Positions 1,603 to 55,026 of a DNA stretch of 64,000 bases are shown here, piece by piece (positions within the stretch are counted from its first letter, which is position 1; each line of letters starts with the position of its first letter). This DNA is from Mustelus asterias. Taxonomy: Eukaryota. Under the pieces are notes generated by a model, which was given only the letters and a program-made list of their open reading frames with translations, was not told the origin of the DNA and ran no database searches. Location: the NCBI RefSeq assembly GCF_964213995.1, contig NC_135808.1, positions 34,472,001 to 34,536,000 of the forward strand, read 5' to 3'. The translations under genes and the position numbers were made by a program.

Positions 1603-1667
1603 GAACTCCAGGAGAGAATGTCTCTCAGCAACAGATGACAACCTGGTGTTCTAAATTTCTATTGGTC
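1603..1667 (+). promoter_or_regulatory. MHC class II-type S-X-Y module
   Basis: X-box CTCAGCAACAGATG(AC) at 1624-1637, ATTGG at 1661 (23 nt after X, the HLA-DRA-type spacing), and possible S-box GAACTCC at 1603-1609. Confidence 0.7.
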
Positions 1668-5479: not shown

Positions 5480-5735
5480 GTTGGAAAGTCCCTGTCCCTG
5501 GAATGAAATGAAGATCGGCATTGACTCCTGTTGTTATACCAGGTAAATGTAGTTTGTGTTGTGTTGGGGAAGAGCAAGTTATGTGGCTGGTAAATGAAGG
5601 TTTTGATGGAAAGTCCCTGTCTCTAATAGACTGGAATGAAGATTGACACTGACTCCAGTAGTTTGTGTAGCGTTGGGAAAGAACAGGTTGTGTGGCTGGT
5701 AATTGAAGGTTTTGTTGGAAAGTCCCTGTCTCTGA
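5480..5735 (-). promoter_or_regulatory. ~110-125-bp degenerate tandem repeat carrying three perfect NF-kB sites
   Basis: GGAAAGTCCC (= GGGACTTTCC on the - strand) at 5483, 5608 and 5717, inside repeated units. Confidence 0.55.
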
Positions 5736-5968
5736 AGGTAACCTAACCCCACATTGTGAAATTTGACTTATAGCAGAATGATGTTAAAACAGTAGCTCGG
5801 CTGCCCTACAGCCAATCAGATCGAGGAGTCATCAGTTGCTGGGTAGAATATGTTCGTGACGATTTGATTCTGTATCTGTGTACAGTGGAGATTATTAACA
5901 GGCCCAGTCACTCCCACAGGCTTTCCAATCTTTATAATCCGAATAGTTGGACAGATTGTGATTGATAA

Positions 5969-15819: not shown

Positions 15820-16805
15820 TTTAAATATTCATTCCTGGGATGTGGGCATTGCTGGCTCAGCCAGCATTTATTATCCATCCCTAATTATCCCTAAACTGAA
15901 TGACTTGCTAGGCATGTAAACCACATTGCTGTGGATCTGAAGTCACTTGTAGGCCAGACCTGATAAGAATCATAGAATCCTACAGTGCAGAAAGAGGCCA
16001 TTCGGCCCATCGAGTCTGCACCAACCACAATCCCACCCAGGCCCTATCCACATATCATAGAAACCCTACAGTGCAGAAGGAGGCCATTCGGCCCATCGAG
16101 TCTGCACCGACCACAATCCCACCCAGGCCCTACCCCCACATATTTTACCCGCTAATCCCACTAACCTACGAATCTCAGGACTCTCAGGGGCAATTTTTAA
16201 CCTGGCCAATCAACCTAACCCGCACATCTTTGGACTGTGGGAGGAAACCGGAGCACCCGGAGGAAACCCACGCAGACACGAGTAGAATGTGCAAACTCCA
16301 CTGCTGTGAAGCAGCAGTGCTAACCACTGTGCTACCGTGCCGCCCCTATCCCTACATATTTACCCACTAACCCCTCTAACCTATGCATCCTGGGACACTA
16401 AGGGGCAATTTAGCATGGCCAATTAACCTAACCCGCACATCTTTGGACTGTGGGAGGAAACCGGAGCACCCGGAGGAAACCCAAGAGGAGAATGCGCAAA
16501 CTCCACACAGACAGTGACCCGAGCCGGGAATCGAACCCAGGTCCCTGGAGCTGTGAAGCAGCAGTGCTAACCACTGTGCCGGCGACACGTCCCATAACGA
16601 CAGCAGATTTCGTCCCCTAAAGCACATTAGTGGACCAGATGGGTTTTTCCGACAATCGAAAATGGTTCCATGGTCATCATAAGACCTTTAATTCCAGATT
16701 TTTATTGAATTCAAATTTCACCATCTGCCGTGGTGGGATTTGAACCCAGAGCATTACCTTGCGTCTCTGGATTACTAGCCCAGTGACAATACCACTGTGC
16801 CATCA
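15820..16805 (-). mobile_element. tRNA-headed SINE-like element split by nested HE1-like SINE copies (15968-16583)
   Basis: Head at 16600-16805 and body/tail at 15820-15965 flank two to three nested V-SINE pieces. Confidence 0.75.
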
Positions 16806-16861
16806 CTTCTCTGGAAATGTCCATAATCTGCATGCAATTAAATACAATTAATATCAGTGGT

Positions 16862-17057
16862 GTGGAGGTCCTGTGGTGCAGTCTAACCACTGAACCAGAA
16901 GCTCCGGGTTCGAGTTCAACGCCAGGACTTGTTCGCCACGGCTGGAGAGTTCAACGGCTGATAATCAACTTGGAAGTTCTTCCACTACTTCCCCCCACTA
17001 TTCCCCAAAGAGCAAAAAACATTTTATGGACGTGAAGATACGCTAAACATACAAAAC
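16862..17057 (+). mobile_element. Short tRNA-derived SINE (distinct family)
   Basis: A-box-like tggtgcagtc, B-box gggttcgagt, A/C-rich tail and 11-bp TSD ATATCAGTGGT (16851-16861, 17058-17068). Confidence 0.75.
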
Positions 17058-17775
17058 ATATCAGTGGTCCCATACAACACCACCAAAAGATTCACATAAA
17101 TTGGCTGCTGGATTTTTCAATATTGGATGGGTGGCTAACCTTCAAAAATGATTCACTAAGTGGGAATGTGAATGTAATAAACACCTTACAAATGAATATT
17201 CGATATTAATATAGTAGCACTGGAAAGCACAGGTACAATCTGGTGTGGGGTCAGACTAGAATTAATATGAGGAGTGTCTTCCAGGGTGTGCTTCAGTTAT
17301 AGTACATGCAGGGCCTGGAAATTGTTTACTGCCGAGCCCCTCAGGCTGCAGGCCCCACATGGAATACACATTGCGAATGGCAGCAACTTTGAAATTGTAT
17401 CGAGGCACCTGAGAGTGGGACATGCTATTCTATTCACAATAGAAGTGAATTCTATTGCACTTCCTTAATATTCAATTTGAAATGTTTTGCTCTCAGCCTG
17501 TATGCCTGATACGGAAATGTATTCTGTAAATATCGAGAATATTAAAATTGTATAGAGTCAAAACAGTTTAATTTTATTGTACTTTCTGTAATTTTCAATG
17601 CAAATATTTTGTAATTACGTTAATAAATGACGTATATTTTTGGACAAGCAGATGGAGTGGGGTGAGGTTATTAACAGTGACTGGAACATTCTAACATTAC
17701 TACAGACAACAACACAGCAATGCTCTTAGGGTTACTCTTGACAGGGTAACATTTTATTATGAGTTATCATGGGTT

Positions 17776-17902
17776 GGAAAGTCCCAAGAACAGAAACCAG
17801 TGCTGCAGAGGCCAGAAATACAGGACACGCAACTACAAACCAAGTCAAAGCCCAAATTGGCCAATTAGAATTCAGCTTTCTGTAGGGTCAGCTGTCTCTG
17901 GG
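17776..17902 (-). promoter_or_regulatory. Inverted MHC class II-type X-Y module plus NF-kB site
   Basis: Minus strand: X CCCAGAGACAGCTG (17902-17889), 20-nt spacer, Y CTAATTGGCC (17868-17859), and GGGACTTTCC at 17785-17776. Confidence 0.75.
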
Positions 17903-18973
17903 TGAAGGTGTTGGAATGGTAGTTGTTTTTCTCCATAGAGTAATAGTGCCCCAGCACCCTCTGGTAACACAGTCATGAACTACATCACACCCGCTGGACT
18001 GCAAAGTTAGAGGAATGGTTAGGATTTAGGATGGGCTATAGACAGCACAGTGCCTCTGTTTGGAGGATACTGAGAGGGCAAAAGACACTCAGCAGTCACC
18101 CCTCCCTCACGGTTTGCCTCTATACTAGTGAATAGGTGAAGACCACAGAATCTGAGATAGAGGAAGGTGGCATATTCACAGTGATGGATGTAGGGTTTCA
18201 ATAGATTGAAAGCAATGCTTCTGGATTGTAGGAAGAGATGATGTGGAGATGCCGGTGTTGAACTGGGGTAAACACAGTAAGAAGTCTCACAATGCCAGGT
18301 TAAAGTCCAACAGGTTTATTTGGTAGCACAAGCACAAGCTTTCAGAGCGCTGTTCCTTCATCAGGTGAGTGGGACTTCTGTTCACAAACAGGGTATATAA
18401 AGACACAAACTCATTTTACAAAATAATGGTTGGAATGCGAGTCTTTACAGGTAATCAAGTCTTAAAGGTACAGGCAATGTGAGTGGAGAGAGGGTTAAGT
18501 ACAGGTTAAAGAGATGTGTATTGTCTCCAGCCAGGATAGTTAGTGAGATTTTGCAAGCCCAGGCATCTCCCTAGGCATGGTACATTGGGGAGACCATGCA
18601 GACGCTACGACAACGGATGAATGAACACCGCTCGACAATCACCAGGCCAGAGTGTTCTCTTCCTGTTGGGGAACACTTCAGCGGTCACGGGCATTCGCTC
18701 TCTGATCTTCGGGTAAGCGTTCTCCAAGGCAGCCTTCACGACACACGACAATGCAGAGTCGCTGAGCAGAGACTGATAGCCAAGTTCCGCATACATGAGG
18801 ACAGCCTCAACCGGGATCTTGGGTTCATGTCACACTATCTGTAACCCCCACAACTTGCTTGGGCTTGCAAAATCTCACTAACTGTCTTGTCTGGAGACAA
18901 TACACATCTCTTTAACCTGTGCTTAACCCTCTCTCCACTCACATTGTCTGTACCTTTAAGACTTGATTACCTT

Positions 18974-19116
18974 GTGAGGGAGTGCTGCTCGGGCTGCAGT
19001 GGAGAGTGACAGTTGGTGTCTCAGTGAGGGAGTGCTGCTCGGGCTGCAGTGGAGAGTGACAGTTGGTGTCTCAGTGAGGGAGTGCTGCTCGGGCTGCAGT
19101 GGAGAGTGACAGTTGG
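18974..19116 (+). repeat. 50-bp tandem monomers in the CR1 5'UTR (~2.9 identical copies)
   Basis: gtgagggagtgctgctcgggctgcagtggagagtgacagttggtgtctca starts at 18974, 19024 and 19074. Confidence 0.95.
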
Positions 19117-19170
19117 GGAAGTGTGGGGAAGTTGTTTTTTTTTTTTTCTTTTCTTTTTTTCTTGCTGGTA

Positions 19171-20100
19171 ATGGCTTCAGGGATGGCAGTTCAGGCAGTA
19201 TGCTGCATCTCCTGTGGGATGTATGTGGTGAGGAAATCCAGTAGTGTTTCAGGAGATTTTAGTTGTAAGAAGTGCATTAGATTGCAGCTTCTGGAGGAGC
19301 GTGTAAAGGAGCTGGAGGGGGAGGTAGAGGAACTCCGCATAATTCGGGAGGCGGAGGTGGAAGTTGATAGGAGTTATAGAGAAATAGTAACTCCTAGAAA
19401 TGAGGCTTGGGTCAATGCCAGGAGGAGGGGTAAGAAGCAATCGGGAAGACAATCCCCTGGGGCGGTTCCCCTCCATAATAGGTTTTCGGTGCTGGAGGCT
19501 ACAGTTGAGGAGGAATCAACTGAGCATAGAGAGCAGATCTCTGGGGGTGAGCCGAGTGAGAAAGCTCAGGTGGTTAGGGGCTGTAAAAGACTGGGCCTTG
19601 TGATTGGGGACTCCACAATTAAGGGGACAGATAGGAGGGTCGGAACTAAAGGTAGGGACTCAGGGTTGGTGTGTTGCCTACCAGGGGCTGGGGTCCGGGA
19701 TGTGTCTGACAGGGTATTCAGGATTCTTAGGGGGGAGGGAGATAAACCACAAGTTATTGTACATGTGGGGACACACGACATAGGGAGGATAGGGGAAGGG
19801 GATATTAGGCAGGGATTTATGGAGTTGGGGTGGAAACTAAAGGCCAAGACTGACAGAGTGGTTATCTCTGGACTCTTGCCTGTACCACGGGATAGTTTAG
19901 AGAGGAATAGGGAGAGGGAAGGTTTGAATTCATGGCTGAGGGGATGGTGCAGGAGGGAGGGGTTCAGGTACTTAAGCAATTGGGGCTCGTACTGGGGAAG
20001 GTGTGACCTCTATGAGAAGGATGGTCTACACCTTAATCAGAAGGGGACCAATATCCTGGGGGGTAAATTTGCTAAGGCCATGCAAGGAGGTTTAAACTGA
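19171..20100 (+). CDS. CR1 ORF1 protein (Zn-finger, coiled coil, SGNH esterase-like domain)
   Basis: First ATG at 19171. CISC…CKKC, leucine-rich coil, then GDS, PGAG, VGTHD and DGLH blocks. Confidence 0.92.
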   Translation: MASGMAVQAVCCISCGMYVVRKSSSVSGDFSCKKCIRLQLLEERVKELEGEVEELRIIREAEVEVDRSYREIVTPRNEAWVNARRRGKKQSGRQSPGAVPLHNRFSVLEATVEEESTEHREQISGGEPSEKAQVVRGCKRLGLVIGDSTIKGTDRRVGTKGRDSGLVCCLPGAGVRDVSDRVFRILRGEGDKPQVIVHVGTHDIGRIGEGDIRQGFMELGWKLKAKTDRVVISGLLPVPRDSLERNREREGLNSWLRGWCRREGFRYLSNWGSYWGRCDLYEKDGLHLNQKGTNILGGKFAKAMQGGLN

Positions 20101-20150
20101 TTCGGGGGGGGGGAGGGATCCTGAGTAGTGGGGCTGAAAGTGAGGGATGC

Positions 20151-22970
20151 ATGGATGGGGACTGCAATGCACGGCATTGCAGAGGTGGGGTGGAGCAGGG
20201 TTTGAAATGTGTATACTTCAATGCCAGGAGTATTCGCAATAAAGTGGGTGAACTTGCAGCGTGGATCAGTACCTGGGACTTCGATGTTGTGGCTATTTCA
20301 GAGACATGGATAGAGCAGGGGCAGGAATGGATGCTGCAGGTCCCGGGGTTCAAATGTTTTAGTCGAAGTAGGGAAGGAGGTAGAAGAGGGGGAGGGGTAG
20401 CATTATTGGTCAGAGATTGTATCACAGTGTCAGAGAGGAGGTTTGATGAGGACTTATCTGTTGAGGTAGTATGGGCGGAGATTAGAAATAGGAGAGGAGA
20501 GGTCACCCTGTTGGGAGTCTTTTATAGACCTCCTAAAAGTTCTAGAGAGGTTGAGGAAAGGATTGCGGAGTCAATCCTGCTTAGGAGTGAAAGTAATAGG
20601 GCAATTGTTATGGGGGATTTTAACTTGACTAATATTGACTGGAATTGTTATAGCTCTAGCTCGTTAGAGGGGTCAGTTTTTGTTCAAAGCGTGCAGGAAG
20701 GTTTTTTGACTCAGTATGTAGACAGGCCAACTAGAGGTGAGGCTATATTGGATCTGGTGCTGGGAAATGAGCCAGACCAGGTGCTAGACTTGGAAGTTGG
20801 TGTGCATTTTGGTGATAGTGACCACAATTCGGTTACGTTCACCTTAGTGATGGAAAGGGATAGGCATGAACCTCGGGCCAGTGGTTTTAGCTGGGGGAAG
20901 GGTAATTATGAGGCTATTAGGAGAGAATTAGGAAACATAGGTTGGACTAGGAGATTACAGGGACTGGGAACGTCCGACATGTGGAGTTTTTTCAAGGAGC
21001 AGCTACTGCGAGTCTGTGATAGGTATGTCCCTGTCAGGCAAGGAGGAATTGGTAGGGCTAGGGAACCGTGGTGCACCAAAAAAGTTTCTTTGTTGGTTAA
21101 AAAGAAAAAGGAGGCTTATGTTCGGATGAGACGTGAGCACTCGGGTAGTGCACTAGAAAGCTTTAGATTGGCTAAGAGGGAGTTGAAGAGCGAGCTTAGA
21201 AGGGCTAAAAGGGGACATGAGAAGACTTTGGCGGATAGGGTTAAAGAGAATCCTAAGGCGTTCTATAGGTATGTCAAGAACAGAAGGTTGGTTAGGGCAA
21301 GTTTAGGGCCAGTTATAGATGGCAGAGGGAAGTTATGTGTGGAACCGGAGGAGATTGGTGAAGCATTGAACCAATATTTCTCTTCGGTGTTCACGCAAGG
21401 GGACATGAATATAGCTGAGGAGGACACTGGGTTGCAAGGGAGTAGAATAGACAGTATTACAGTTGATAAGGAGGATGTGCAGGATATTCTGGAGGGTCTG
21501 AAAATAGATAAATCCCCTGGTCCGGATGGGATTTATCCAAGGATTCTCTGGGAGGCAAGAGAAGTGATTGCAGAGCCTCTGGCTCTGATCTTCAGGTCGT
21601 CGTTGGCCTCTGGTATAGTACCAGAAGATTGGAGGTTAGCGAATGTTGTCCCATTGTTTAAGAAGGGGAACAGAGACTTCCCCGGGAATTATAGACCGGT
21701 GAGTCTCACTTCTGTTGTCGGCAAGATGTTGGAAAAAATTATAAGGGATAGGATTTATAGTTATTTGGAGAGTAATGAATTGATAGGTGATAGTCAGCAT
21801 GGTTTTGTGGCAGGTAGGTCGTGCCTTACTAACCTTATTGAGTTTTTTGAGAAAGTGACCAAGGAGGTGGATGGGGGCAAGGCAGTGGACGTGGTATATA
21901 TGGATTTTAGTAAGGCGTTTGATAAGGTTCACCATGGTAGGCTTCTGCAGAAAATGCAGATGTATGGGATTGGGGGTGATCTAGGAAATTGGATCAGGAA
22001 TTGGCTAGCGGATAGGAAACAGAGGGTGGTGGTTGATAGTAAATATTCATCATGGAGTGCGGTTACAAGTGGTGTACCTCAGGGATCTGTTTTGGGGCCA
22101 CTGCTGTTTGTAATATTTATTAATGATCTGGATGAGGGTATAGTTGGGTGGATTAGCAAATTTGCTGATGACACCAAAGTCGGTGGTGTGGTAGACAGTG
22201 AGGAAGGGTGTCGTAGTTTGCAGGAAGACTTAGACAGGTTGCAAAGTTGGGCCGAGAGGTGGCGGATGGAGTTTAATGCGGAGAAGTGTGAGGTAATTCA
22301 CTTTGGTAGGAATAACAGATGTGTTGAGTATAGGGCTAACGGGAGGACTTTGAATAGTGTGGAGGAGCAGAGGGATCTAGGTGTATGTGTGCATAGATCC
22401 CTGAAAGTTGGGAATCAAGTAGATAAGGTTGTTAAGAAGGCATATGGTGTCTTGGCGTTTATTGGTAGGGGGATTGAATTTAGGAGTCGTAGCGTTATGT
22501 TGCAACTGTACACAACTCTGGTGCGGCCGCACTTGGAGTACTGTGTGCAGTTCTGGTCCCCACATTACAGGAAGGATGTGGAGGCTTTGGAGAGGGTGCA
22601 GAGGAGGTTTACCAGGATGTTGCCTGGTATGGAGGGGAGATCCTATGAGGAGAGGCTGAGGGATTTGGGATTGTTTTCGCTGGAAAGGCGGCGGCTAAGA
22701 GGGGATCTTATTGAAACATATAAGATGATTAGAGGTTTAGATAGGGTGGATAGTGATAGCCTTTTTCCTCTGATGGAGAAATCCAGCACGAGGGGGCATG
22801 GCTTTAAATTGAGGGGGGGTAGTTATAGAACCGATGTCAGGGGTAGGTTCTTTACCCAGAGGGTGGTGAGGGATTGGAATGCCCTGCCAGCATCAGTAGT
22901 AAATGCGCCTAGTTTGGGGGCGTTTAAGAGATCCGTAGATAGGTTCATGGACGAAAAGAAATTGGTTTAG
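20151..22970 (+). CDS. CR1 ORF2 protein (APE endonuclease + reverse transcriptase), 939 aa
   Basis: YFNARS, ISETW, MGDFN and DSDH endonuclease motifs; GVPQGSVLGP and FADD RT motifs; uninterrupted frame. Confidence 0.97.
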   Translation: MDGDCNARHCRGGVEQGLKCVYFNARSIRNKVGELAAWISTWDFDVVAISETWIEQGQEWMLQVPGFKCFSRSREGGRRGGGVALLVRDCITVSERRFDEDLSVEVVWAEIRNRRGEVTLLGVFYRPPKSSREVEERIAESILLRSESNRAIVMGDFNLTNIDWNCYSSSSLEGSVFVQSVQEGFLTQYVDRPTRGEAILDLVLGNEPDQVLDLEVGVHFGDSDHNSVTFTLVMERDRHEPRASGFSWGKGNYEAIRRELGNIGWTRRLQGLGTSDMWSFFKEQLLRVCDRYVPVRQGGIGRAREPWCTKKVSLLVKKKKEAYVRMRREHSGSALESFRLAKRELKSELRRAKRGHEKTLADRVKENPKAFYRYVKNRRLVRASLGPVIDGRGKLCVEPEEIGEALNQYFSSVFTQGDMNIAEEDTGLQGSRIDSITVDKEDVQDILEGLKIDKSPGPDGIYPRILWEAREVIAEPLALIFRSSLASGIVPEDWRLANVVPLFKKGNRDFPGNYRPVSLTSVVGKMLEKIIRDRIYSYLESNELIGDSQHGFVAGRSCLTNLIEFFEKVTKEVDGGKAVDVVYMDFSKAFDKVHHGRLLQKMQMYGIGGDLGNWIRNWLADRKQRVVVDSKYSSWSAVTSGVPQGSVLGPLLFVIFINDLDEGIVGWISKFADDTKVGGVVDSEEGCRSLQEDLDRLQSWAERWRMEFNAEKCEVIHFGRNNRCVEYRANGRTLNSVEEQRDLGVCVHRSLKVGNQVDKVVKKAYGVLAFIGRGIEFRSRSVMLQLYTTLVRPHLEYCVQFWSPHYRKDVEALERVQRRFTRMLPGMEGRSYEERLRDLGLFSLERRRLRGDLIETYKMIRGLDRVDSDSLFPLMEKSSTRGHGFKLRGGSYRTDVRGRFFTQRVVRDWNALPASVVNAPSLGAFKRSVDRFMDEKKLV

Positions 22971-23359
22971 GTTGGAGGGTCACAGTTTTTTTTTTTTTTT
23001 TTTAACTGGTCGGTGCAACATCGTGGGCCGAAGGGCCTGTTCTGCGCTGTAATGTTCTATGTTCTATGTTCTATGTTCTACCTGTAAGGACTCGCATTCC
23101 AACCATTATTCTGTAAATTGAGTTTGTGTCTTTATATGCCCTGTTTGTGAACAGAACTCCCACTCACCTGATGAAGGAGCAGCGCTCTGAAAGCATGTGG
23201 CTTGTGCTACCAAATAAACCTGTTGGACTTTAACCTGGTGTTGTGAGACTCCTTATTGTAGGAAGAGCACAGATATGTTTTAATGACCCCAGTGACATCA
23301 TCTCAGTGCCCTTTCCCATTCCAGATGTTTATTAATGACCCCAGTGTCCTGGCCTCAAG

Positions 23360-31590: not shown

Positions 31591-32514
31591 TCATAACCTC
31601 TGTCATTTTTGAGGACTTTCAAGGTAACTCCATCCTGACTTTTGTTATGGTCGGCAGAGGATAAGTGCCAAGCTGTCCAAATCCCAAATGGAAAGTTGGT
31701 ACAAATTAGCCACAATAATTTTGCAATTTGTATATAATGAGGAGGTATCTGAAAGCAAGATAAGTAACTCTCATTAATCAATTGTCATTATTTTATGTAT
31801 TAAAATTAAACATTTATTAAAATAAAGAAAAAAGAAAATAACACTTAAAACGCAAGAATACCTTTACACAGTTCACAGTATTTTTCAAACATTTTCAAAA
31901 AGATCTTGACTTAAATAAACTCAGAGCTAAATCTCCTTTTTGATGGCAACAATTCTCAGATGCATACTCCATAGCACATTCGAGTAACATTACCACACAA
32001 TGCCCCTGTTGCTCTCTGAGTGTGGCAGCAAACTGATATTCACAGGTTTAGCTTCGACATACATTGAGATCTCACAGTCACCACCAACACAGCCCACAAT
32101 GTTTCCTTAAATCTGTTTCCTCCTTTGATCTTATAATCCAGTATTTCTACAATCCTTTCAAAGTTCCTTTTCCCAGAATTGATCAACCTTTTTTAAAAAG
32201 CTTAATGGCTAGTGTATTTATAAAGTGAACTTACCCTATTTACAATCTTCCAATTGTGTATGTTCCTTTTCAACAGCCAAATTCAAACCACCTATTTTAT
32301 TTGCCTTCTATAAATCCCCATTCAAGTTCTCGTGGTTCTCTGTTCATGACCTTTTTAAACCATTTGCCCTCACACCTCCTTTATTGATGTTTGACCTTTG
32401 TAGTCCTTTGTCTCCAATTCAATTAAACCATTCATACTCACACAAGCTTGTTTCTTAGTAAATCACAGTGGTATTGCAAAAAGAAATATTAAGACTCATT
32501 TTCCCTACACTGTG

Positions 32515-32897
32515 TAGCACAGTGCCGCCAGCCCTGGTGGGTCTGTCCTGTTGGTAAGACAACCCATACACAGGGATGGTGATGGTATTTTCTGGGACAT
32601 TATCTGTAAGGTTATGATTATGTCAGGCTGTTGCTAGACTAGTCTGTGAGACAGCTGTCCCAGTTTCAGCACAAGCCCCAGATTTCATAAGGAGGTCTTT
32701 GCAGGGTCGGCAGGTCTTGGATTGCTTTAGTCATTTTTGGTGCTGACGTCGATGCCAGGTGACCCGTCTGGTTTCATTCCTTTTTGTAGATTTTGTAGTG
32801 CTTTAAAACAACTGAGTGGTTTTTCAGAGGGCATTTAAGAATCAAGCACATTGCTATGGGTCTGGAGTCACGTATAGTCCAGGACAGGTAAGGACGA
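32515..32897 (-). mobile_element. 5' fragment of the tRNA-headed LINE family (APE start)
   Basis: Reverse complement is homologous to 62300-62550 (gggagagctgtctcacagactag…). Confidence 0.7.
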
Positions 32898-32899
32898 CC

Positions 32900-33880
32900 G
32901 GTAAGCGAAAAACCGCACCGACCTCCTCAGAAGACAAACACGGGACATGGTGGACAGAGTACCCTTCGTTGTCCAGTACTTCCCCGGAGCGGAGAAGCGA
33001 CGACATCTTCTCCGGAGCCTTCAACATGTCACTGATGAAGACGGACATCTCGCCAAGGCCATCCCCACACCCCCACTTCTTGCCTTCCAGCAACCGCACA
33101 ACCTCAAACAGACCATTGTCCGCAGCAAACTTCCCAGCCTTCAGGAGAATAGTGACCACAACACCACACAACCCTGCCACAGCAACCTCTGCAAGACGTG
33201 CCGGATCATCAACACGGATGCCATCATCTCACGTGAGAACACCATGCACCAGGTACACGGTACATACACTTGCAACTCGGCCAACGTTGTCTACCTGATA
33301 TGCTGCAGGAAAGGATTTCCCGAGGCATGGTACATTGGGGAAACCATGCAGACGCTACGACAACGGATGAATGAACACCGCTCGACAATCACCAGGCAAG
33401 ACTGTTCTCTTCCTGTTGGGGAACACTTCAGCGGTCACGGGCATTCGGCCTCTGATCTTCGGGTAAGCATTCTCCAAGGCAGCCTTCACGACACACGATA
33501 GCGCAGAGTCGCTGAGCAGAAACTGATAGCCAAGTTCCGCACACATGAGGATGGCCTCAACCGGGATCTTGGGTTCATGTCACACTATCTGTAACCCCCA
33601 CGACTTGCCTGGGCTTGCAAAATCTCACTAACTGTCCTGGCTTTAACCTGTGCTTAACCCTCCCTCCACTCACATTGTCTGTACCTTTAAGACTTGATTA
33701 CCTGTAAAGACTCGCATTCCAACCATTATTTTGTAAATTGAGTTTGTGTCTTTATATACCCTGTTTGTGAACAGAACTCCCACTTACCTGACGAAGGAGC
33801 AGCGCTCCGAAAGCGAGTGGTTTGTGCTACCAAATAAACCTGTTGGACTTTAACCTGGTGTTGTGAGACTTCTTACTGTG
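32900..33880 (+). mobile_element. Penelope-like element 3' part: GIY-YIG endonuclease region and pLTR with hammerhead motif
   Basis: ORF 32947-33501 (CKTC…NVVYLICC…WYIGET…RQRMNEH) ends at a premature TAG compared with the 18596 copy. CTGACGA…GAAA at 33788-33812. Confidence 0.92.
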
Positions 33881-34099
33881 GGGCCGATTTTACCAAATCG
33901 GGACTAAGTGCCGGGTGCAGCCGGAAATCAGACCCACGCCCGGCAGCCGCGCTCCAGCGCCCCCATATGCTTTTTTTGGCGTGGGTCTAGTGGGCGGGGC
34001 CTAGCGCATTTGCATCTGTCGGAGCGCCGACAGCACAGCGCGCACGGGCGCGAAAGTCAAAGGTAGCGCTGACAGCAGTGGGGATGAAAGGAATCCCCT

Positions 34100-37000
34100 T
34101 TAGAGGATAATGTCCTTGGACATTGCTCGTACACGGACCCCCCCCCGGACGCGAGACAGAATGAGATTCGCCCACACTAGATGGTGGTCCGAGCATGGCA
34201 CCTGCTGCACAGAGGCTGATGGAATGCCGGAAGCGTACACCCTTGAAATGTAAAGGCGATCGAGTCTGGACGCTCCAGCTCCAAATCCCACATAAGTGAA
34301 GACTCTGGAGCTAGGATGGAGATGTCCCCAGACGTCCACCAAGTCAAGGGACCCGACCAGGTCTTGCAATCTCGCTATCGCCAGCATGGGACACTAGGGG
34401 CCAGTTCCGGGCCTCAAGGGTGCAGTTGACATCCCCCCCACCACCAGGGACAATGCACGAGCCCATGTTGATGGTGCCAAGATAAGTGCAAACTTTCTTG
34501 TCAAGAGTCGCTTGCTGCAGTCCAGCCAGTGGAGCGGAGACATTCACAAAGTGAAACACCACGCCCCCCCTCACAAACCGCCAAGTGCAGCAATCGGCCT
34601 GGCACAGGCTCCTTGACCCCTAAGATCTCCGGCTGAAAATGTGGGGCCAACAAGATCGCCACTTTGCTGGAATTATCCATGTTTTGTCTCCCGAGGCGGG
34701 GCAGGTTTCTTGCAGGAGGCACAATGCACACTTCCTGTCCCGGAGAACCGAGAAGCTCTGGAGCTTGTCTTGTGTCTCCCTGCCGCCATTGATGTTGAGT
34801 TTGGTTATGGATACTCTCGTGTCAGAAGCAAGGTGCACCCATCCACTCCCTCACGAGCCCAGAAAGGAATCCTTGCAACTGGTGCTGCTCATTCCGGTCC
34901 GAGTCCAGTGCCATCTTTGAATAGGCACGCACGGACTGTACCAGCAGTGCCAGATCCAACCAGCAGTCAAGGGCTATCTGGATACCATCCCAGTGACCAT
35001 GATGTTCTAGCAAAAGGTCCCAGAGTTCCCTGGGGAGATGAGGGGAGACTCGGTGGGCGGGGGGGGGGAGGGGGGGGGGCTCGAGGGAGTCATGAGCCAT
35101 TTCTGCCAATGGACTCCAAATCGTCTCCCGTGCCCACCACCAAGCAGCCATCTTCCTCTGGGTGGTTGCCGTGCAGATCCGAGTACCCCGCTGCAGTGAG
35201 TACAGCAGGTGGCACGGAGACGCCAACTAGCCCCACCTTGGTTTCACCCCCCAGGATCGATGGAGGAGGGGTCCTCTGTGGGATCCTCCCGGATCTCTGG
35301 ATCAGAGGGTGGCGGCGGCTCAGACCCCCACTCCACCCAGACACCAGGACACCTGGGAACCTGGAGAAAACTCCGGTTCCGGGGTGGGGGGGGCCCAGTG
35401 CTAGGGGCTATGGTGGGGGGGGGGCAGTGCTAGGGGCTAGGGTGGGGGGGGCCCAGTGCTAGGGGCTAGGGTGGGGGGGGGCAGTGCTAGGGGCTAGGGT
35501 GGGGGGGGCCCAGTGCTAGGGGCTAGGGTGGGGGGGGGGCAGTGCTAGGGGCTAGGGTGGGGGGGCCCAGTGCTAGGGGCTATGGTGGGGGGGCCCAGTG
35601 CTAGGGGCTACGGTGGGGGGGCCCAGTGCTAGGGGCTATGGTGGGGGGGGCCCAGTGCTAGGGGCTATGGTGGGGGGGGCCCAGTGCTAGGGGCTATGGT
35701 GGGGGGGGCCCAGTGCTAGGGGCTATGGTGGGGGGGGGCCCAGTGCTAGGGGCTACGGTGGGGGGGGCCCAGTGCTAGGGGCTATGGTGGGGGGGGCCCA
35801 GTGCTAGGGGCTATGGTGGGGGGGGCCCAGTGCTAGGGGCTAGGGTGGGGGGGGCCCAGTGCTAGGGGCTATGGTGGGGGGGCCCAGTGCTAGGGGCTAG
35901 GGTGGGGGGGGGCCCAGTGCTAGAGGCTATGGTGGGGGGGGCCCAGTGCTAGGGGCTACAGTGGGGGGGCCCAGTGCTAGGGGCTAGGGTGGGGGGGGGC
36001 AGTGCTAGGGGCTAGGGTGGGGGGGGGGGCAGTGCTAGGGGCTAGGGTGGGGGGGGCAGTGCTAGGGGCTAGGGTGGGGGGGGGCAGTGCTCGGGGCTAG
36101 GGTGGGGGGGCCCAGTGCTAGAGGCTAGGGTGGGGGGGGCCCAGTGCTAGGGGCTAGGACAGAGATGGGGGGCCCTCCTCAGCACCCCCACCCAGAGATC
36201 CAAACAACGGGGTGCCGCCGCCGCAGCTGCACACGTTATAAATCTGAAAGCCTCTGGGGTGCAAAATTGCACCGGGCGGATTGCGGTCTCGCAGGTCCCG
36301 CTCGCACCCGGCCCCAGGACGGCCCGCTTGGAGGACTGCGTGTTTCATTTGCCCCCACTCTGGGAACAGGTTGGAGCATGGCAGGGCATGAAGTTGGGGG
36401 TGGGGGGAGGAGGGTGGGGGGGGGGTGGGGGGGGGGAGGAGGTGGGGGGGTGGGGGGGGGAGGAGGTGGGGGGGTGGGGGGGGGTGGGGGAATGGTGGCC
36501 TCTTCATCAGGGAGGTGGAGATGTTAACTCCAGAGCGGACCTCCCCAGAAGATCGAGGTGTGGGGGAGGAGCCCTATGGGAACAAAGAACAGAACATGCG
36601 ATCGTATTAGTCTCTGGACGTGGCCTCCAGAGGGTCCATCACCAGGAAGGTCCTGCCCACCATGAGCCCCTTTTCCAGAGTGAGGTGGGCCGCCCACTCA
36701 GTCTTCAGGAAGTAAATGGTCTTCCCGTACATTTGAAGCCGCTACAATGGCCGAGGGGCCGACAACCCTGGGCATTGCCTGGACGCAAGCCTCGATGGTC
36801 ATATGGGGGTGAGTGCAGCACTTCACCCCGAGTTTCTTGGCTATTAATTTAAATGGTGACGGGAGCAGCGGGGGCTCAGGAAGATGCCACTCCCACGTAA
36901 ATAGCCCTGGAAGACCCCGCCGCCAGCAATGGTGGTGTCGCCACCATCAGGGTAGTGCTACCCCCACTTCAGGCGGTTGTTTGGCATGATGTAATCAGTG
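34100..37000 (-). mobile_element. Tx1/L1-clade LINE 5' part (ORF1 and APE endonuclease), decayed
   Basis: ITKLNING…CLLQET, GGDVNCTL, LVDVW…FTY…SRLDRLY…CSDHHLV; ORF1-like VVGPSAIVAAS…LEKGLMVG near 36650-36800. Confidence 0.8.
35385..36157. repeat. G-rich ~29-30-bp minisatellite (~26 copies)
   Basis: Unit cccagtgctaggggcta(t/g)ggtggggggg. Confidence 0.95.
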
Positions 37001-37174
37001 GTTGGGGGAGGGGAGAGGGGGATTGAGTTGGAAAGATAACCCCCCCTCCCCCTCCCTTAGAAATGGAGATAGCTGGGAGAAAGGAGCGGGCAGGGGAAGC
37101 GAGGGAGGAACATAATGATAAGGAGTAAGGAGAGGGGCACCGAGGTGTAAGTGCCCCAGGGTCGGGTGGTGAGT

Positions 37175-40100
37175 CCCAGCAACACACACTCCCCATACCC
37201 CCCACAGACCCCCAGCAACACACACTCCCCATACCCCCCACAGACCCCCAGCAACACACACTCCCCATACCCCCCACAGACCCCCAGCAACACACACTCC
37301 CAATACCCCCCACAGACCTCCAGCAACACACACTCCCCATACCCCCCACAGACCCCCAGCAACACACACTCCCCATACCCTCCCCCACAGACCCCCAGCA
37401 ACACACACTCCCCATAACCCCCCACATAGACCCCTAGCAACACACATACCCACACCCCCCCAACTGACCCCTCAGCAACACACACTCCACAAACACCCAC
37501 CCCACAGCCTTCCACCAACAGACACTCCCTTAACCCCCACACAGACCCCCCGTAACACACACACCCCATAACCCCCACACACCACCCCCACCAACACACA
37601 CTCCCATACCCCCCCCACACCGACCCTCAGCAACACACAATCCCCATAGCCCCCACAGACCCCCAAGCAGCATACAGTCCCCAAACGCAACCCAACAAAC
37701 CCCCAGCAACACACAGACCCCATACCGCCACCCCCACACACACCCAGCAACACACACACCCCATGCCCCCCCACAGACCCCCAGCAACACACACTCCCTA
37801 TACCCCCCACAGACCCCCAGCAACACACACTCCCTATACCCCCCACAGACCCCCAGCAACACACACTCCCTATACCCCCCACAGACCCCCAGCAACACAC
37901 AGACCCCATACCGCCACCCCCACACACACCCAGCAACACACACACCCCATGCCCCCCCACAGACCCCCAGCAACACACACTCCCTATACCCCCCACAGAC
38001 CCTCAGCAACACACGCTCGCCAAACTACCCCGCCCACACCCCCAGCAACACACACTCCACATACCCCCTCACACAGATCCACAGCAACACACACACCCCA
38101 TACTACCCCACACACACCCAGCAACACACACTGCCCACATCCTCCCCACATCCCGCAGCGACAGACACTCCCATATGCTCCCACACAGACCCCAGCAACA
38201 CACACTGCCCACATCCTCCCCACATCCCGCAGCGACAGACACTCCCATACGCTCCCACACAGACCCCAGCAACACACACTGCCCACATCCTCCCCACATC
38301 CCGCAGCGACAGACACTCCCATACGCTCCCACACAGACCCCAGCAACACACACTCACCATGCCACCCAACACACCTCCAGCAACACAGACTCCCCACACC
38401 CTCCCCACAGTCCCCAGCAGACACACTCCCTATACCCCCGACAGGCCCCCCAGCAACACATACTCTCCATACCCCCCCCCCCACACACACTCCCAGCAAC
38501 ACACACTCCCCGTACCCCCCCCCCCCACACACACTCCCAGCAACACACACTCCCCGTACCCTCCCCCACAGACCCCCCCAGCACACTCCCCATATGCCAC
38601 CCCTCCCCCCACACAGACCCCTCAGCAACACACACTCCCCAAACCACCCCGGCCACATCCCCCCACAACACACACTCCCGATACCCCCCACAAAGACCCC
38701 CAGCACTGCACACTTCCCATACCCTCCCCCACACACCCCCAGCAACACACACTCCCCATACCACCCCAATGGACCCCCCAGCAAAACACACTCCCCATGC
38801 CACCCAACACACCCCCAGCAACACACACTCCCCATAGCCCCCCACACACCCCAGCAACACACACTCCCCATAGCCCCCCACATACCCCAGCAACACACAC
38901 TCCCCATAGCCCCCTTTGCAGATCCACAGCAACACACACTCCCCATACCCACCACACAGACCTCCAGCAACACACACTCCCCACACCCCCAACACAGACA
39001 CACATACCCTCCCCCACACAGAGCCCCCACAGCAACACACACTCCCCATACTCCCCCACAGACCCCCCAGCAACACACACTCCCCATACTCCCCCACAGA
39101 CCCCCCAGCAACACACACTCCCTACACCCCCCCACACAGACACCCAGCGACACACACTCCCCAACAGACCCCCAGCAACACACACTCCCCAAACACACCC
39201 CAACAGACCCCCAGCAACACACACTCCCCATACCCCCTTCCCCACACAGACCCCCAGCAACACACACTCCCCATACCCCCTTCCCCACACAGACGCCAGC
39301 AACACACACACCCCATACCCCCCCCAACACAGACCCAGCAACACACACACCCTATACCCCACCCACGCACCCCAAGCAACACAACTCCCATATCCCCCCC
39401 CACACAAACCCCCAGCAACACACACTCCCCATACCCCTCCCCCAACAGATCCCACAGCAAAACACACTTCCGCATACCTCCCCCACACACCCCAAGCAAC
39501 ACAACTCCCCATACCCCCTCACATAAACCCCCAGCAACACACACTCATCACATCGCCCCCCACACAGACATCCAGCAACACACACTCCCCATACCCCCTC
39601 AATGGACCCTCCAGCAAAACACACCCCCCATGCCACCCAACACACCCCCAGCAACACACACTCCCCATAACCCCCCACACAGACACCCAGCAACACACAT
39701 TCCCCATACCGTGCTCCCCCCAACAGCCTCCCAGCAACATGGACCCCCCATACCCCACAAGAGACGCCCAGCAAAACACACTCCCCATATCTCCCCACAG
39801 ACCCCCCAGCAACTCACATTCCTCATACCCGCCCACACACCCCCAGCAACACACACTACCCATATGTTAGGGAACTTGTGTGTTGCAGGGGGTCTGTGTT
39901 GGGGGGTATGGGGAGTGTGTGTTGCTGGGGGTTTGTGTGGGGGGGGCTATGGGGATGTTAGGGAACTTGGGGAAATAAATAGTGATGTTTTGAGGAGTGT
40001 ACATCTTACAGAGAAGGAAGTGCTGGAAGTCTTAAAGCGCATCAAGGTAGATAAATCCACGGGACCTGATGAAGTGTATCCCAGGACATTGTGGGAGGCT

Positions 40101-42650
40101 AGGGAGGAAAATGCGGGTCCCCTAGCCGAGATATTTGAATCATCGATAGTCACGAGTGAGGTGCCTGAAGATTGGAGAGTGGCAAATCTTGTGCCTTTGT
40201 TTAAAAAGGGCTGCAGGGAAAAGCCTGGGAACTACAGGCCAGTGAGCCTCACATCTGTGGTGGGTAAGTTGTTGGAAGGTATTTTGAGAGATAGGATCTA
40301 CAGGCATTTAGAGACGCAAGGACTGATTAGGGACAGTCAGCATAGCTTTGTGAGTGGAAAATCATGTTTCACAAATCTGATTAAGTTTTTTGAAGGGGTA
40401 AACAAGAAGTTAGATGAGGGCAGTGCAGTTGATGTTGTGTATATGGACTTTAGCAAGGCCTTTGACAAGGTACCGCATGGTAGGTTGTTGCATAAGGTTA
40501 AATCTCATGGGATCCAGGGTGAGGTAACCAATTGGATACAAAATTGGCTTCTTGACAGAAGCCAGAGGGTGGTTGTAGAGGGTTATTTTTCAAACTGGAG
40601 GCCTGTAACCAGCGGTGTGTCTCAGGGATCAGTGCTGGGTCCACTGTTATTTGTCATTTATATTAATGACTTGGATGAGAATATAGGAGGCATGGCTAGT
40701 AAGTTTGCAGATGACACTAAGATTGGTGGCACAGTGGACAGTGAAGAAAGTTATTTCCAATTGCAACGGGATCTTGATCAATTGGGCCAGTGGGCTGACA
40801 AATGGCAGATGGAGTTTAATTTAGACAAATGTGAGGTGATGCATTTTGGGAGATTGAACCAGGGCAGGACTTACTCAGTTAATGAGAGGGCATTGGGGAG
40901 AGTTACAGAACAAAGAGATCTTGGGGTACATGTTCATAGCTCCTTGAAAGTGGAGTCACAGGTGGACAGAGTGGTGAAGAAGGCATTCAGCATGCTTGGT
41001 TTCATTGGTCAGAACATTGAATACAGGAGTTGGAATGTCTTGTTGAAGTTGTACAAGACATTAGTAAGGCCACACTTGGAATACTGTGTGCAATTCTGGT
41101 CACCCTATTATAGAAAGGATATTATTAAACTAGAAAAAGTGCAGAAAAGATTTACGAGGATGCTACCGGGACTTGATGGATTGCATTATAAGGAGAGGCT
41201 GGACAGATTGGGACTTATAGAGATCTATAAAATAATGAGTGGCACAGATCAGCTAGATAGTCAATATTTTTTCCCAAAGGTAGGGGAGTCTAAATCTAGA
41301 GGGCATAGGTTAAAGCTGAGAGGGGAGAGATACAAAAGTGTCCAGAGGGGCAATTTTCTCACACAGAGGGTGGTGAGTGTCTGGAACAAGCTGCCAGAGG
41401 TAGTAGTAGAGGCGGGTACAATTTTGTCTTTCAAAAAGGATTGAGACAGTTACATGGGTACGATGGGTATAGAGGGATATGGGCTAAATAGAGGCAATTG
41501 GGATGAGTTTAGGGGTTTTAAAAAAAAGGGCAGCATGGACAAGTTGGGCTGAAGGGCCTGTTTCCATGCTGTAAACCTCTATGACTCTATGATTCTATAT
41601 CCCCCCCACACACCCCCAGCAACACACGCTCTCCATACACCCCTCAACAGGCCCCCAGCAACACACGCTCTCCATACACCCCTCAACAGGCTCCCAGCAA
41701 CACAAACTCCCCACAACCCCCCAACAGATCCCCAGCAACACACACACACCCCATAGCCCCCCCAACAGACCCCCAACAACACACACTCCCCATGCACCCC
41801 CCAACACCACACAATCCCCATACCCCCCACACAGATCCCCAGCAACACACACTCCCCATACCCCCCCACAGACCCCCCTCTGCAACACATACTCCCCATA
41901 CCCCCCCACAGACCCCCAGCAGCACACACACCCCATAGCCCCCCCAACAGACCCCCCAACGACACACACTCCCCATGCAGCCCCCAACACACCACCAGCA
42001 ACACACAATCACCATACACCCCACACAGACCCCCAGAAACACACACTCCCCATACCCACCCAAACAGATCCCCAGCAACACACACTCCCCATACCCTCCC
42101 CCCCCACAGACCCCCCTCTGCAATACATACTCCCCATATCCCCCCCGCAGACCCCCAGCAGCACACACCCCCCATGCCCACCCACACAGACCCCCAGCAA
42201 CACACACTCCCCATACACCCCCACACAGACCCCCAGCAGCACACACCCCCCATGCCCACCCACACAGACCCCTAGCAACCACACATTCCCCATACCCACC
42301 CACACAGACCCCCAGAAACACGCACTCCCCATACCCTCACCAACAGACCCCCAGCAACACACTCCCCCATAACCCCCCTACACACCCCAAGCAACACAAC
42401 TCCCCATACACCCCCCACATACCCCCCCCCACAGAACCCCAGCAACAAACACTCCCCATACCCCTTGACACAGACCCCCAGCAACACACACTCCCCACAC
42501 CCCCCCAACAACACACACTCCTCATACCCTCCCACATCCCCCAACAACACACACTCCCTATACCTCCCCACACCCCACCAGCAACGCACACTCCTCATAC
42601 TCTGCCAAACAGACTCCCGGCAACACACACACCCCATAGACCCCCACAGC
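37175..42650. repeat. C/A-rich ~36-bp degenerate satellite (37175-39863 and 41598-42650), split by CR1
   Basis: Unit cagcaacacacactccccataccccccacagacccc. Confidence 0.95.
39955..41597 (+). mobile_element. CR1 5'-truncated copy, RT frame open to 41444
   Basis: KSTGPD, DFSKAFDKVPH, FADD and RPHLEYC; in-frame deletion of the FSLERRRLRGD segment; ctctatga-type tail. Confidence 0.93.
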
Positions 42651-43536
42651 CCCCCAGAATGGCAACGCAGGCACTCCTATTCCACCCCTCACACACACCC
42701 AGAGCCCGTGCAGTAGTGGCCCAGACAGCGCTGCTTGACAAGTGCTGAGGCTGCAGTGCTGCCAGTTCTGAGAGTTTCCAGCCCATCCCCCACCTGCAAC
42801 AGTGCTTGCTGCTGCCTGCACTAGGACCCAGAGTCAGCGCCAAGCCCCAAGGTTGGCACTCAGACCCGTGTCCGTGCCGAGAGGCCAAAGTCAGACCCAA
42901 TGAGCAACAAAAGCTCCCCATCCTCCTCACACACGCAGACCCCCACAACCTGAAATGCAACATGGCTGCCATGAAACAGTCCCCCCTTCCTTGAGCAGCA
43001 CGGAGCCATTTGAAAGCAGAGACCGACCTCCTTGCTCACTCTCTCTGCTTCAGCATCTGAATCCGACTTTTACACTTGGTGTTTTCTGGTTGCAGGTACA
43101 GCGAGTGAGGTTGTTAAGGAGGCGAGCTGGGCTGATTGGGAGTGAAGCTCGCTGTGATTAATGCAAAAAAATGCAAAATGGTGTTTCACCCATTTTGGAC
43201 GGGGTCCCAATCGCACCGATATCTTTTGGTAAAATGGGAATGGGCGTGAAAATGGGTACCATTCCCGCTAGTTCCAGCGCTTCCAATTTTATGACTTTTT
43301 TCCACCGCAAAATGGGTGCAATGATGTTGTAAAATTCTGTTCATCATGTTTAACAGAGGGCAATAACAGGGGCGCTCAGTCCAAAATGTAGATTGGGCAA
43401 TAAATCAGTGTCACAGACTGACTGGTATCATGACCTATCCACTCTGCACACCCGTCCTCCATAATATGGCAATTGATGTGGGCTATACTATAAATACTCC
43501 AGAACAACTCTCCTGCCCCCTGCCACCTTTACCCCA

Positions 43537-54784: not shown

Positions 54785-54827
54785 CCCAGAAACAGCTGAT
54801 GGAGGAAATCTGAATTTCTGATTGGTT
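54785..54827 (+). promoter_or_regulatory. MHC class II proximal promoter X-Y module
   Basis: X CCCAGAAACAGCTG (54785-54798), 19-nt spacer, Y CTGATTGGTT (54818-54827), ending 132 nt upstream of a Kozak ATG. Confidence 0.88.
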
Positions 54828-54959: not shown

Positions 54960-55026
54960 ATGGAAGTTGGGACACACTTTACTGTGTTGCTGCTGGTTTT
55001 GATTCATGGAGCCTGGGCTGTGAAAT
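54960..55026 (+). CDS. Exon 1 (leader peptide) of a probable MHC class II alpha chain gene; remaining exons not found in the window
   Basis: acaATGg start; MEVGTHFTVLLLVLIHGAWAVK hydrophobic signal peptide; phase-1 donor T|GTGAGT at 55027. Resembles my recollection of the nurse shark class II alpha leader (ME…F.VL.LVLIQGGWA), which is unverified. Confidence 0.8.

What the first reader, a model, noticed from the sequence alone, without database searches (positions are those of the whole stretch)
17776..17902. Inverted copy of the MHC-II promoter module coupled to an NF-kB site
Seen: the minus strand reads ttca-CCCAGAGACAGCTG-20 nt-CTAATTGGCC, versus the promoter ttca-CCCAGAAACAGCTG-19 nt-CTGATTGGTT. 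Even the spacer shares gaaa.ctgaatt. GGGACTTTCC lies about 75 nt downstream, and no leader exon follows. Known: inverted S'-Y' enhancers regulate mammalian H2-Ea and HLA-DRA. Inference: either an equivalent distal enhancer pushed 37 kb away by TE insertions, or the relic promoter of a lost head-to-head class II gene.
Basis: partly seen in the sequence, partly recalled or inferred. Interest (0 to 1): 0.72.

Follow-up and report, generated by a model that had tools for sequence, protein, structure and literature searches.

The report
Shark distal MHC-II switch with NF-kB
In a shark's immune (MHC class II) gene cluster, a copy of the genes' on-switch sequence sits far from any gene next to an NF-kB-type site, one of several such switch-plus-NF-kB modules there, and it likely works as a long-range enhancer like those known in mammals, which would make this kind of control very old.

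Summary
The window lies in a shark MHC class II cluster (alpha1-beta1-alpha2-beta2-broken beta3, all on +). The module is not alone: promoterless X-Y modules also lie at window 1624 and 5843 and 12 kb before the window. It has three genomic copies, each 3' of a beta gene. A duplication junction (window 31.6-43.3 kb) separates it from the alpha promoter, so it is not the alpha gene's own enhancer pushed away by transposons. An exact X-Y pattern hits 23 places genome-wide (reversed control 0), 21 in the class II or class Ia regions. Five of 7 distal module families carry a kappa-B site 114-133 bp after the X box; the 4 class II promoters carry none. In four other sequencing runs, 0 of 30 box positions vary against 19 of 118 others (p about 0.01). 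No leader exon follows. Best reading: a CIITA- and NF-kB-responsive distal enhancer, like mammalian S'-Y'/XL elements. Function is untested, and deleting two such human X-Y boxes did not change expression. An earlier scan note on this same window already mentioned extra modules.

The parts
17888..17902 (-). X1/X2-like box of the distal module (E3); 14 of 15 bases identical to the class II alpha promoter X box
   Evidence: unchanged in runs X14, X15, X17, not fully determined in X13
17866..17887 (-). 22-nt X-Y spacer; its Y-proximal 13 nt resemble the alpha promoter spacer and show no listed change in four other runs
   Evidence: z 4.2; changes only at 17879, 17884, 17886
17861..17865 (-). Y box (inverted CCAAT pentamer)
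   Evidence: unchanged in 4 of 4 runs; one base changed in the third genomic copy
17787..17798 (-). IRF/ETS-like stretch beside the kappa-B site; only the GAAA core (17793-17796) is kept; weak
   Evidence: label recalled; 4 of 12 positions vary in other runs
17776..17785 (-). NF-kappa-B consensus site, 75 nt after Y
   Evidence: unchanged in 4 of 4 runs and in both paralogous copies
17651..18027 (-). 377-bp non-repeat island that still aligns (72%) to the third genomic copy while its flanks do not
1624..1665 (+). Second promoterless X-Y module (E2), 22-nt spacer, no kappa-B site within 300 bp
5483..5843 (-). Third distal module (B): X box, Y only 12 nt later, and three kappa-B sites (5483, 5608, 5717); 3 genomic copies at 95-96%
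31599..43346 (.). Interval holding the junction of the tandem duplication, filled with GC-rich minisatellites (35382-42657) and LINE pieces
54785..54825 (+). Promoter X-Y module of the class II alpha gene (21-nt spacer, no kappa-B site within 300 bp)
54960..55026 (+). Leader exon of the second class II alpha gene (approximate 3' end); later exons lie outside the window

Best explanation
This is a promoterless copy of the MHC class II X-Y switch with an NF-kB-type site 75 bases behind it, sitting in a block of such modules behind each class II beta gene of a shark, and it likely acts as a long-range enhancer. Shown: the sequence, its three copies, its place in the beta-3' block, the sibling modules, the recurring X-Y plus kappa-B layout, and box-specific conservation. 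Inferred from mammals: RFX and a CREB-type factor would bind X, NF-Y would bind Y, the complex would recruit CIITA, and NF-kB at the neighbouring site would add an inflammation or B-cell activation input that the class II promoters here lack. The modules would loop to the nearest class II promoters (the beta promoter 70 kb to the left, the alpha promoter 37 kb to the right) and probably act together and redundantly. The 48-bp core probably shares an old origin with the alpha promoter core; its present position upstream of an alpha gene is a by-product of tandem duplication of the alpha-beta unit.
For: Exact X-Y pattern: 23 hits in 3.68 Gb, reversed control 0; 11 in the class II region, 10 at C8:41.0-43.4 Mb where proteasome-subunit and class I exons lie, 2 elsewhere. 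A matrix trained without any class II distal module recovers this one at 29.7 bits; 18 real hits at 19 bits or more versus 0 on reversed sequence over 1,064,000 bases. Kappa-B site 114-133 bp after the X start, same strand, in 5 of 7 distal families (U3/U4, E1, B, E3, D) and in 0 of 4 intact promoters; background 0.087 sites per 600 bp. Composite X-Y-kappa-B pattern: 13 genome-wide hits, control 0; 8 in the class II region and 1 more on the same contig. Orthologous sequence in 5 of 5 runs laid from other samples; 0 of 30 box positions versus 19 of 118 others vary, Fisher p = 0.0098. Third paralogue keeps 27 of 30 box bases versus 260 of 347 others, p = 0.043. RFXAP exons are in this genome; a CIITA orthologue is reported in whale shark (PMC8455134, passage). 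Mammalian distal X-Y elements bind RFX and CIITA and act as enhancers (PMC7866136 passage; PMC4381081 passages; PMC7041702 passages).
Against: No binding, chromatin or expression data. In human cells, deleting two CIITA-bound distal X-Y boxes removed CIITA binding but left class II expression and looping unchanged (PMC13653327 section 12). The element as a whole is not less diverged than its flanks (run X14: 18 of 198 inside versus 105 of about 1420 over 16800-18219). Runs X14, X15 and X17 share most differences, so they are not independent, and all runs are only 5-10% diverged. The third copy has a broken Y box. The second copy (98%) lies in a recently homogenised block and says nothing about selection. 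No clear S box. The two exact patterns and the 114-133 window were set after seeing the modules, so those counts are partly circular. E3 may be related to families D and U3 (z 2.6-3.4), which lowers the number of independent families.
Confidence: 0.6

Rival explanations
1. The module binds the class II factors and NF-kB but has little or no effect of its own on transcription; it is a docking or chromatin-marking site that is redundant with its neighbours.
For: Human precedent: deletion of distal X-Y boxes B and D lost CIITA and some H3K27ac but not expression (PMC13653327). CIITA binds many sites it does not regulate (PMC4381081). Several sibling modules nearby. The third copy has lost its Y box.
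Against: Box-specific invariance across other runs suggests selection on this single module. Its X-Y spacing equals that of the promoters, which in humans goes with regulated targets.
Confidence: 0.15
2. It is the promoter of an unannotated transcript on the minus strand (a non-coding RNA or a gene with short exons), driven by X-Y and kappa-B as a CIITA target.
For: The aligned island runs about 125 bp beyond the kappa-B site in the transcription-like direction. X-then-Y-then-proximal-sites is a promoter-like order (recalled for CD74). Intergenic transcription occurs around the human distal S'-Y' module (PMC1904273 passage).
Against: No class II leader follows. The few window frames near the modules that were scanned, including 16787-17032, gave no Pfam match. 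The same layout recurs in both orientations in unrelated sequence, which fits enhancers better.
Confidence: 0.12
3. It is the non-functional relic promoter of a lost head-to-head class II alpha gene.
For: Specific likeness of X box and spacer to the alpha promoter. Broken class II pieces do exist in the region: a frameshifted beta3 and an alpha promoter with a decayed leader at C8:33.91 Mb.
Against: No likeness outside 48 bp and no leader. The boxes are preferentially kept. The kappa-B site is absent from all class II promoters here but present in 4 other distal families. All class II genes found lie on the plus strand.
Confidence: 0.08
4. The module serves class I or other MHC genes through NLRC5 and NF-kB rather than class II through CIITA.
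For: X-Y with kappa-B and IRF-like sites is the factor set of class I promoters (recalled). A class I gene lies at C8:35.07 Mb and one U3-type module lies among class I exons at 32.64 Mb.
Against: No class I exon between C8:33.55 and 35.07 Mb. The module duplicates with the beta genes. Its X box is nearly the alpha promoter's own.
Confidence: 0.05

Closest known systems
Distal S'-Y' and XL elements of the mammalian MHC class II locus (HLA-DRA S'-Y'; Krawczyk 2004 and Gomez 2005 as cited in PMC7866136; PMC1904273; PMC4381081)
   Same: Promoterless X-Y module with promoter-like spacing, several per locus, in either orientation, between class II genes.
   Different: In a shark. Tied to the 3' side of beta genes rather than a few kb upstream of an alpha gene (the DRA/Ea position and inversion are recalled). 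Carries a kappa-B site at a near-fixed distance. Binding and activity untested. No sequence orthology to any mammalian element was tested.
HLA-DRB1/DQA1 intergenic super enhancer (DR/DQ-SE; PMC7041702, PMC13653327)
   Same: Cluster of X-Y sites in a beta-alpha intergenic interval; RELB sites were predicted in its open peaks.
   Different: The shark genes are in tandem on one strand and the modules spread over 30 kb of transposon-rich DNA. A strict CTCF-like pattern found no site in these intervals. In humans two of the X-Y boxes were dispensable for expression.
MHC class I / B2M promoters (kappa-B + ISRE + SXY) and the CD74 promoter (recalled)
   Same: Same set of factor sites in one short module.
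   Different: In class I and B2M the kappa-B/ISRE sites lie upstream of X (recalled); here they lie downstream of Y, and no gene follows.

Membership tests
Distal CIITA-type S'-Y'/XL enhancer | X1/X2-like box followed by Y box in promoter order and spacing | tested here: met
   22-nt spacer versus 21-22 in the four class II promoters; 29.7 bits with a matrix trained on other modules
Distal CIITA-type S'-Y'/XL enhancer | S (W) box upstream of X | tested here: inconclusive
   Only an ACC trinucleotide 16-18 nt upstream, read by eye; the alpha promoter shows none either; S consensus recalled
Distal CIITA-type S'-Y'/XL enhancer | Inside the class II locus, away from a gene start | tested here: met
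   About 50 kb after the last beta1 exon found and 37 kb before the alpha2 promoter; no leader downstream; short-exon or non-coding transcripts not excluded
Distal CIITA-type S'-Y'/XL enhancer | Cognate factors exist in the organism | tested here: met
   RFXAP exons in this genome; CIITA in whale shark from PMC8455134; RFX5, NF-Y and CIITA were not searched in this genome
Distal CIITA-type S'-Y'/XL enhancer | Bound by RFX, NF-Y and CIITA in vivo | not testable with these tools
   Needs ChIP or CUT&Tag
Distal CIITA-type S'-Y'/XL enhancer | CIITA-dependent enhancer activity on class II genes | not testable with these tools
   Needs reporter, 3C or deletion
Positional equivalent of the inverted module upstream of HLA-DRA / H2-Ea | Belongs to the upstream region of an alpha gene and duplicates with it | tested here: not met
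   It duplicates with the block behind beta genes; the first alpha gene has no copy upstream
Relic class II promoter of a lost gene | Homology to a class II promoter beyond the boxes, or a leader-exon remnant | tested here: not met
   Flank z at most 0.3; no leader hit
Relic class II promoter of a lost gene | Neutral decay of the boxes | tested here: not met
   0 of 30 box positions vary versus 19 of 118 others; the third copy alone has a broken Y
MHC class I-type promoter | Kappa-B/ISRE upstream of SXY and a class I gene downstream | tested here: not met
   Kappa-B lies downstream of Y (class I order recalled); no PF00129 hit between C8:33.55 and 35.07 Mb
Transposon-borne motif | Many dispersed copies | tested here: not met
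   3 genomic matches, all in the class II region; 0.3% local repeat cover over 16800-18230

The most novel reading that the evidence does not exclude
Sharks control MHC class II through a dispersed locus-control region built from a composite X-Y plus NF-kB enhancer grammar: class II promoters carry only the CIITA module, while at least five different distal elements couple it to a kappa-B site about 120 bp away. Distal CIITA enhancers would then date to the origin of jawed-vertebrate adaptive immunity, some made by copying a promoter core, and the kappa-B coupling would be an ancestral or shark-specific route for inflammatory control of antigen presentation.
Probability: 0.3. Interest if true: 0.7.

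Novelty: new variant of a known kind. Interest (0 to 1): 0.48.

Why it matters
Distal X-Y enhancers of MHC class II have been characterised in mammals. I found no paper on shark class II promoters or enhancers: two searches returned 0 papers, and two shark MHC papers have no occurrence of 'promoter' or 'enhancer'; the library lacks most subscription papers. A mapped, conserved set of such modules in a cartilaginous fish makes it testable whether long-range CIITA control is as old as class II itself. The recurring kappa-B partner gives a specific, cheap reporter test of CIITA and NF-kB synergy. The kind of element is known and its function here is unproven, which caps the interest.

Tried and rejected
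PF00969 (class II beta) found no match in the genome; beta genes were mapped with tblastn instead. No RNA holder was listed for the stretch, which is no evidence either way. The difference table was cut (189 rows not shown), so only its piece totals were used. The LTR-like match shared by units 1 and 3 (C8:34,463,442 and 34,881,123) was dropped as a repeat. The 4 off-contig hits of the composite pattern were judged chance; the 3 printed have poor X boxes and the C24 hit was not fetched. The 2 off-contig hits of the X-Y pattern (C16, C70) were not followed. Only 150 of 607 candidate frames were scanned with Pfam; frames under 70 aa were not scanned, so short-exon genes near the D and U modules are not excluded. 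C8:33.93-34.082 Mb was not fetched; it is covered only by the genome-wide searches. A strict CTCF-like pattern gave 2 hits in 1,064,000 bases, neither near the modules. Literature searches listed nothing on shark class II regulation; one search was swamped by shark anatomy papers and is uninformative, and (teleost promoters) returned 0. A look-up of earlier findings by sequence returned nothing. The original S'-Y' papers (Masternak 2003, Krawczyk 2004, Gomez 2005) were seen only as citations. No supplements were read; those of PMC10751288 could hold class II region maps that bear on gene order.

Full report
Observation. The inverted match covers 48 columns with 37 identities and stops there. 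It scores 52 against at most 31 on reversed-window controls. The names X, Y and kappa-B are recalled consensus labels; that the same X-Y pattern precedes all four intact class II genes is shown.

Setting. The window is G000:C8:34,472,001-34,536,000. The gene at 54960 is a shark class II alpha: its alpha-1 exon matches PF00993 and elasmobranch class II alpha proteins, the closest labelled Mustelus asterias. tblastn over fetched stretches gives, all on the plus strand: alpha1 (34,249,878-34,300,901), beta1 (34,419,821-34,440,163), alpha2 (34,526,960-34,587,017), beta2 (34,674,973-34,702,159) and a broken beta3 (frameshifted beta-2 exon at 34,778,004, transmembrane exon, no leader or beta-1 exon found). 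This fits the elasmobranch class II region of classical alpha and beta genes only (PMC10751288, passages and part 1 of section 4). I did not assign the genes to the DAA/DBA lineages.

Copies and the duplication junction. The module (E3) has three genomic matches: this one, one at 34,756,126 (98%) and one at 34,884,517 (72% over 377 bp). Each lies 3' of a beta gene; only this one has an alpha gene after it, and alpha1 has none upstream. Window 466-31598 is collinear at 92-99.5% with the block behind beta2, while unique sequence shared with the alpha1 upstream region starts at 43347. The junction lies between, in an interval with large GC-rich minisatellites. So E3 belongs to the beta-3' block and came to lie upstream of alpha2 by tandem duplication. 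The other reading (a unit starting with E3, with E3 lost before alpha1 and alpha lost twice) needs more losses but is not excluded. The 37 kb is repeat-rich (66% locally repeated), but that is not why the two are apart. The block behind beta1 and beta2 is mostly 95-99% identical while most beta intron matches are 70-87%, so it was homogenised recently and the 98% copy is uninformative about selection.

Sibling modules. A pattern scan of 864,000 bases found promoterless X-Y modules E1 (34,459,718, minus) and E2 (window 1624, plus), both repeated behind beta2, and D1/D2 at 34,906,699 and 34,916,470. A matrix trained on the alpha promoter, both beta promoters and two modules from C8:41 Mb, with no class II distal module, gave 18 hits at 19 bits or more in 1,064,000 bases and 0 on reversed sequence; E3 scores 29.7. 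It added B (window 5843, minus; X with Y only 12 nt on; three copies at 95-96%) and U0-U4 upstream of alpha1. It missed the window's E2 and the third E3 copy at the 17-bit cut. Genome-wide, an exact X-Y pattern has 23 hits and a reversed control 0: 11 in the class II region, 10 at C8:41.0-43.4 Mb among proteasome-subunit and class I exons, 2 on other contigs. That pattern was written after seeing the modules, so the 11 are partly circular; the 10 are not.

The kappa-B partner. Within 300 bp of the X start, a kappa-B consensus occurs in 0 of 4 intact class II promoters. It occurs at +114 to +133 on the same strand in 5 of 7 distal families (U3/U4, E1, B, E3, D). U0 and U2 have one about 220 bp upstream on the other strand; U1 and E2 have none. 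Two copies at stretch boundaries were read: the second E3 has it, the second E2 shows none in 330 nt downstream. Two of the three B copies have lost the nearest site and keep one at +224. Background is 0.087 sites per 600 bp; 6 of 7 families within 600 bp has a binomial p of 2e-6, an overstatement if families are related (E3 with D, z 3.3-3.4; E3 with U3, z 2.6). A composite X-Y-kappa-B pattern has 13 genome-wide hits and control 0: 8 in the class II region, 1 U3-type copy at C8:32.64 Mb, 4 on other contigs, of which the 3 inspected look like chance. E3, its third copy and D1/D2 also have a GAAA at a fixed place beside the kappa-B site; the rest of that IRF-like stretch varies.

Origin of the core. 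With the three bases next to Y left out, E3's spacer resembles the alpha promoter spacer (z 4.2, p 0.0005) and none of 9 other non-paralogous modules (z at most 1.5). Four flank segments show no likeness (z at most 0.3), and no alpha or beta leader lies within about 5 kb downstream of the window copy or the third copy. In mammals the spacer sequence is poorly conserved while its length is kept (PMC4381081 passages), so shared ancestry of the 48-bp core with the alpha promoter is the simpler inference; convergence on a functional flank is possible.

Conservation. Nineteen runs from 8 studies hold the stretch or part of it, none on record as RNA. I laid five. Runs X4, X13, X14 and X15 (four different organism codes) cover 16800-18230 at roughly 3-12% difference per piece. 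On 17745-17945, runs X13, X14, X15 and X17 list 19 variable positions and no indels. Within 17773-17920, 0 of 30 box positions and 19 of 118 others vary (Fisher p 0.0098). Caveats: the piece table counts 12, 18, 18 and 16 differences where 11, 13, 14 and 13 are listed. I infer that the rest lie near contig or stretch ends, which leaves the X box of X13 undetermined; three short X13 contigs over 17887-17933 carry 2-3 unplaced differences each. X14, X15 and X17 are close to one another. The element overall is no more conserved than its flanks (X14: 18 of 198 versus 105 of about 1420). The third paralogue keeps 27 of 30 box bases against 260 of 347 others (p 0.043), with kappa-B intact and Y broken. 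Between units 1 and 3 the unique collinear matches are two beta exons, B and this island.

Mechanism. Shown: anatomy, copies, position, sibling modules, box-specific conservation. Inferred from mammals: X1, X2 and Y bind RFX, CREB and NF-Y, which recruit CIITA (PMC13653327 and PMC7041702 passages). Distal copies bind RFX and CIITA and act as enhancers (PMC7866136 passage; table of distal modules in PMC1802633; PMC1904273 passages; order and spacing in PMC2278383 passages). The factors are plausible in sharks: RFXAP exons here, CIITA and NLRC5 in whale shark (PMC8455134 passage). I put 0.6 on a working CIITA- and NF-kB-responsive enhancer. Against it: nothing functional was measured, and deleting two CIITA-bound distal X-Y boxes in human cells left expression and looping unchanged (PMC13653327 section 12). 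Rivals: bound but dispensable 0.15; promoter of an unannotated transcript 0.12; inert relic promoter 0.08; class I-directed 0.05.

Comparison and novelty. It works like, and passes the sequence tests of, the mammalian distal S'-Y'/XL class, but the defining binding and activity tests could not be run, and it fails the test of being the positional equivalent of the alpha-upstream module. What appears new is the shark setting and the recurring X-Y plus kappa-B layout confined to distal modules. Searches for shark class II promoter boxes returned 0 papers, and PMC10751288 and PMC8010645 do not contain 'promoter' or 'enhancer'; PMC6155461 passages concern cetacean promoters only. Verdict: real feature, new variant of a known kind, interest 0.48.

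Noticed in passing
window 5483-5843 (minus); copies at G000:C8:34,743,525 and 34,880,969: X box with a Y box only 12 nt later (about one helical turn short) and three kappa-B sites; three genomic copies at 95-96%, more alike than the beta exons of the same units.
   Followed up: partly
window 1624-1665 (plus); L027 at G000:C8:34,459,718 (minus): Two more promoterless X-Y modules (E2 without, E1 with a kappa-B site), repeated behind the second beta gene.
   Followed up: yes
L066/L067 at G000:C8:34,906,699 and 34,916,470 (minus); L069-L072 and L131 at 34.087-34.211 Mb (plus): Further X-Y modules flanking the class II cluster; D1/D2 carry an ETS-IRF-like site (label recalled) directly beside the kappa-B site. 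No cellular gene was found near D1/D2 among the frames scanned.
   Followed up: partly
L023 and L042, upstream of G000:C8:34,419,821 and 34,674,973: The beta promoters have their X box 448 nt before the ATG, followed in beta1 by an array of 12 ATTGG (CCAAT-type) boxes.
   Followed up: no
L100-L109, G000:C8:41.07-43.37 Mb: Ten X-Y modules in two families near proteasome-subunit and class I exons; the larger family has a G-rich, CTCF-like stretch (by eye, recalled motif) about 55 nt upstream of X.
   Followed up: partly
L083/L084, G000:C8:33,908,661-33,911,759: A third alpha promoter (96-98%) cut after the Y box region, with a decayed leader about 1.7 kb further on.
   Followed up: partly
G000:C8:34,447,000-34,503,600 versus 34,714,000-34,762,250: The intergenic block with the modules is mostly 95-99% identical between units while most beta intron matches are 70-87%: recent duplication or conversion of the regulatory block between older beta genes.
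   Followed up: partly
window 35382-42657: Large GC-rich minisatellites (29-bp and 37-39-bp units) at the duplication junction.
   Followed up: partly
L028:4880-6376 (minus), L057:1524-4784, L117:367-1593 (minus): Open frames with retroviral env-like or pol Pfam matches in the class II region, one between E1 and E2 just before the window.
   Followed up: no
window 46311-49629 (minus) and 19078-30409: Fragmented LTR-retrotransposon frames (integrase match) and two long inverted LINE copies fill much of the interval between the module and the alpha promoter.
   Followed up: no
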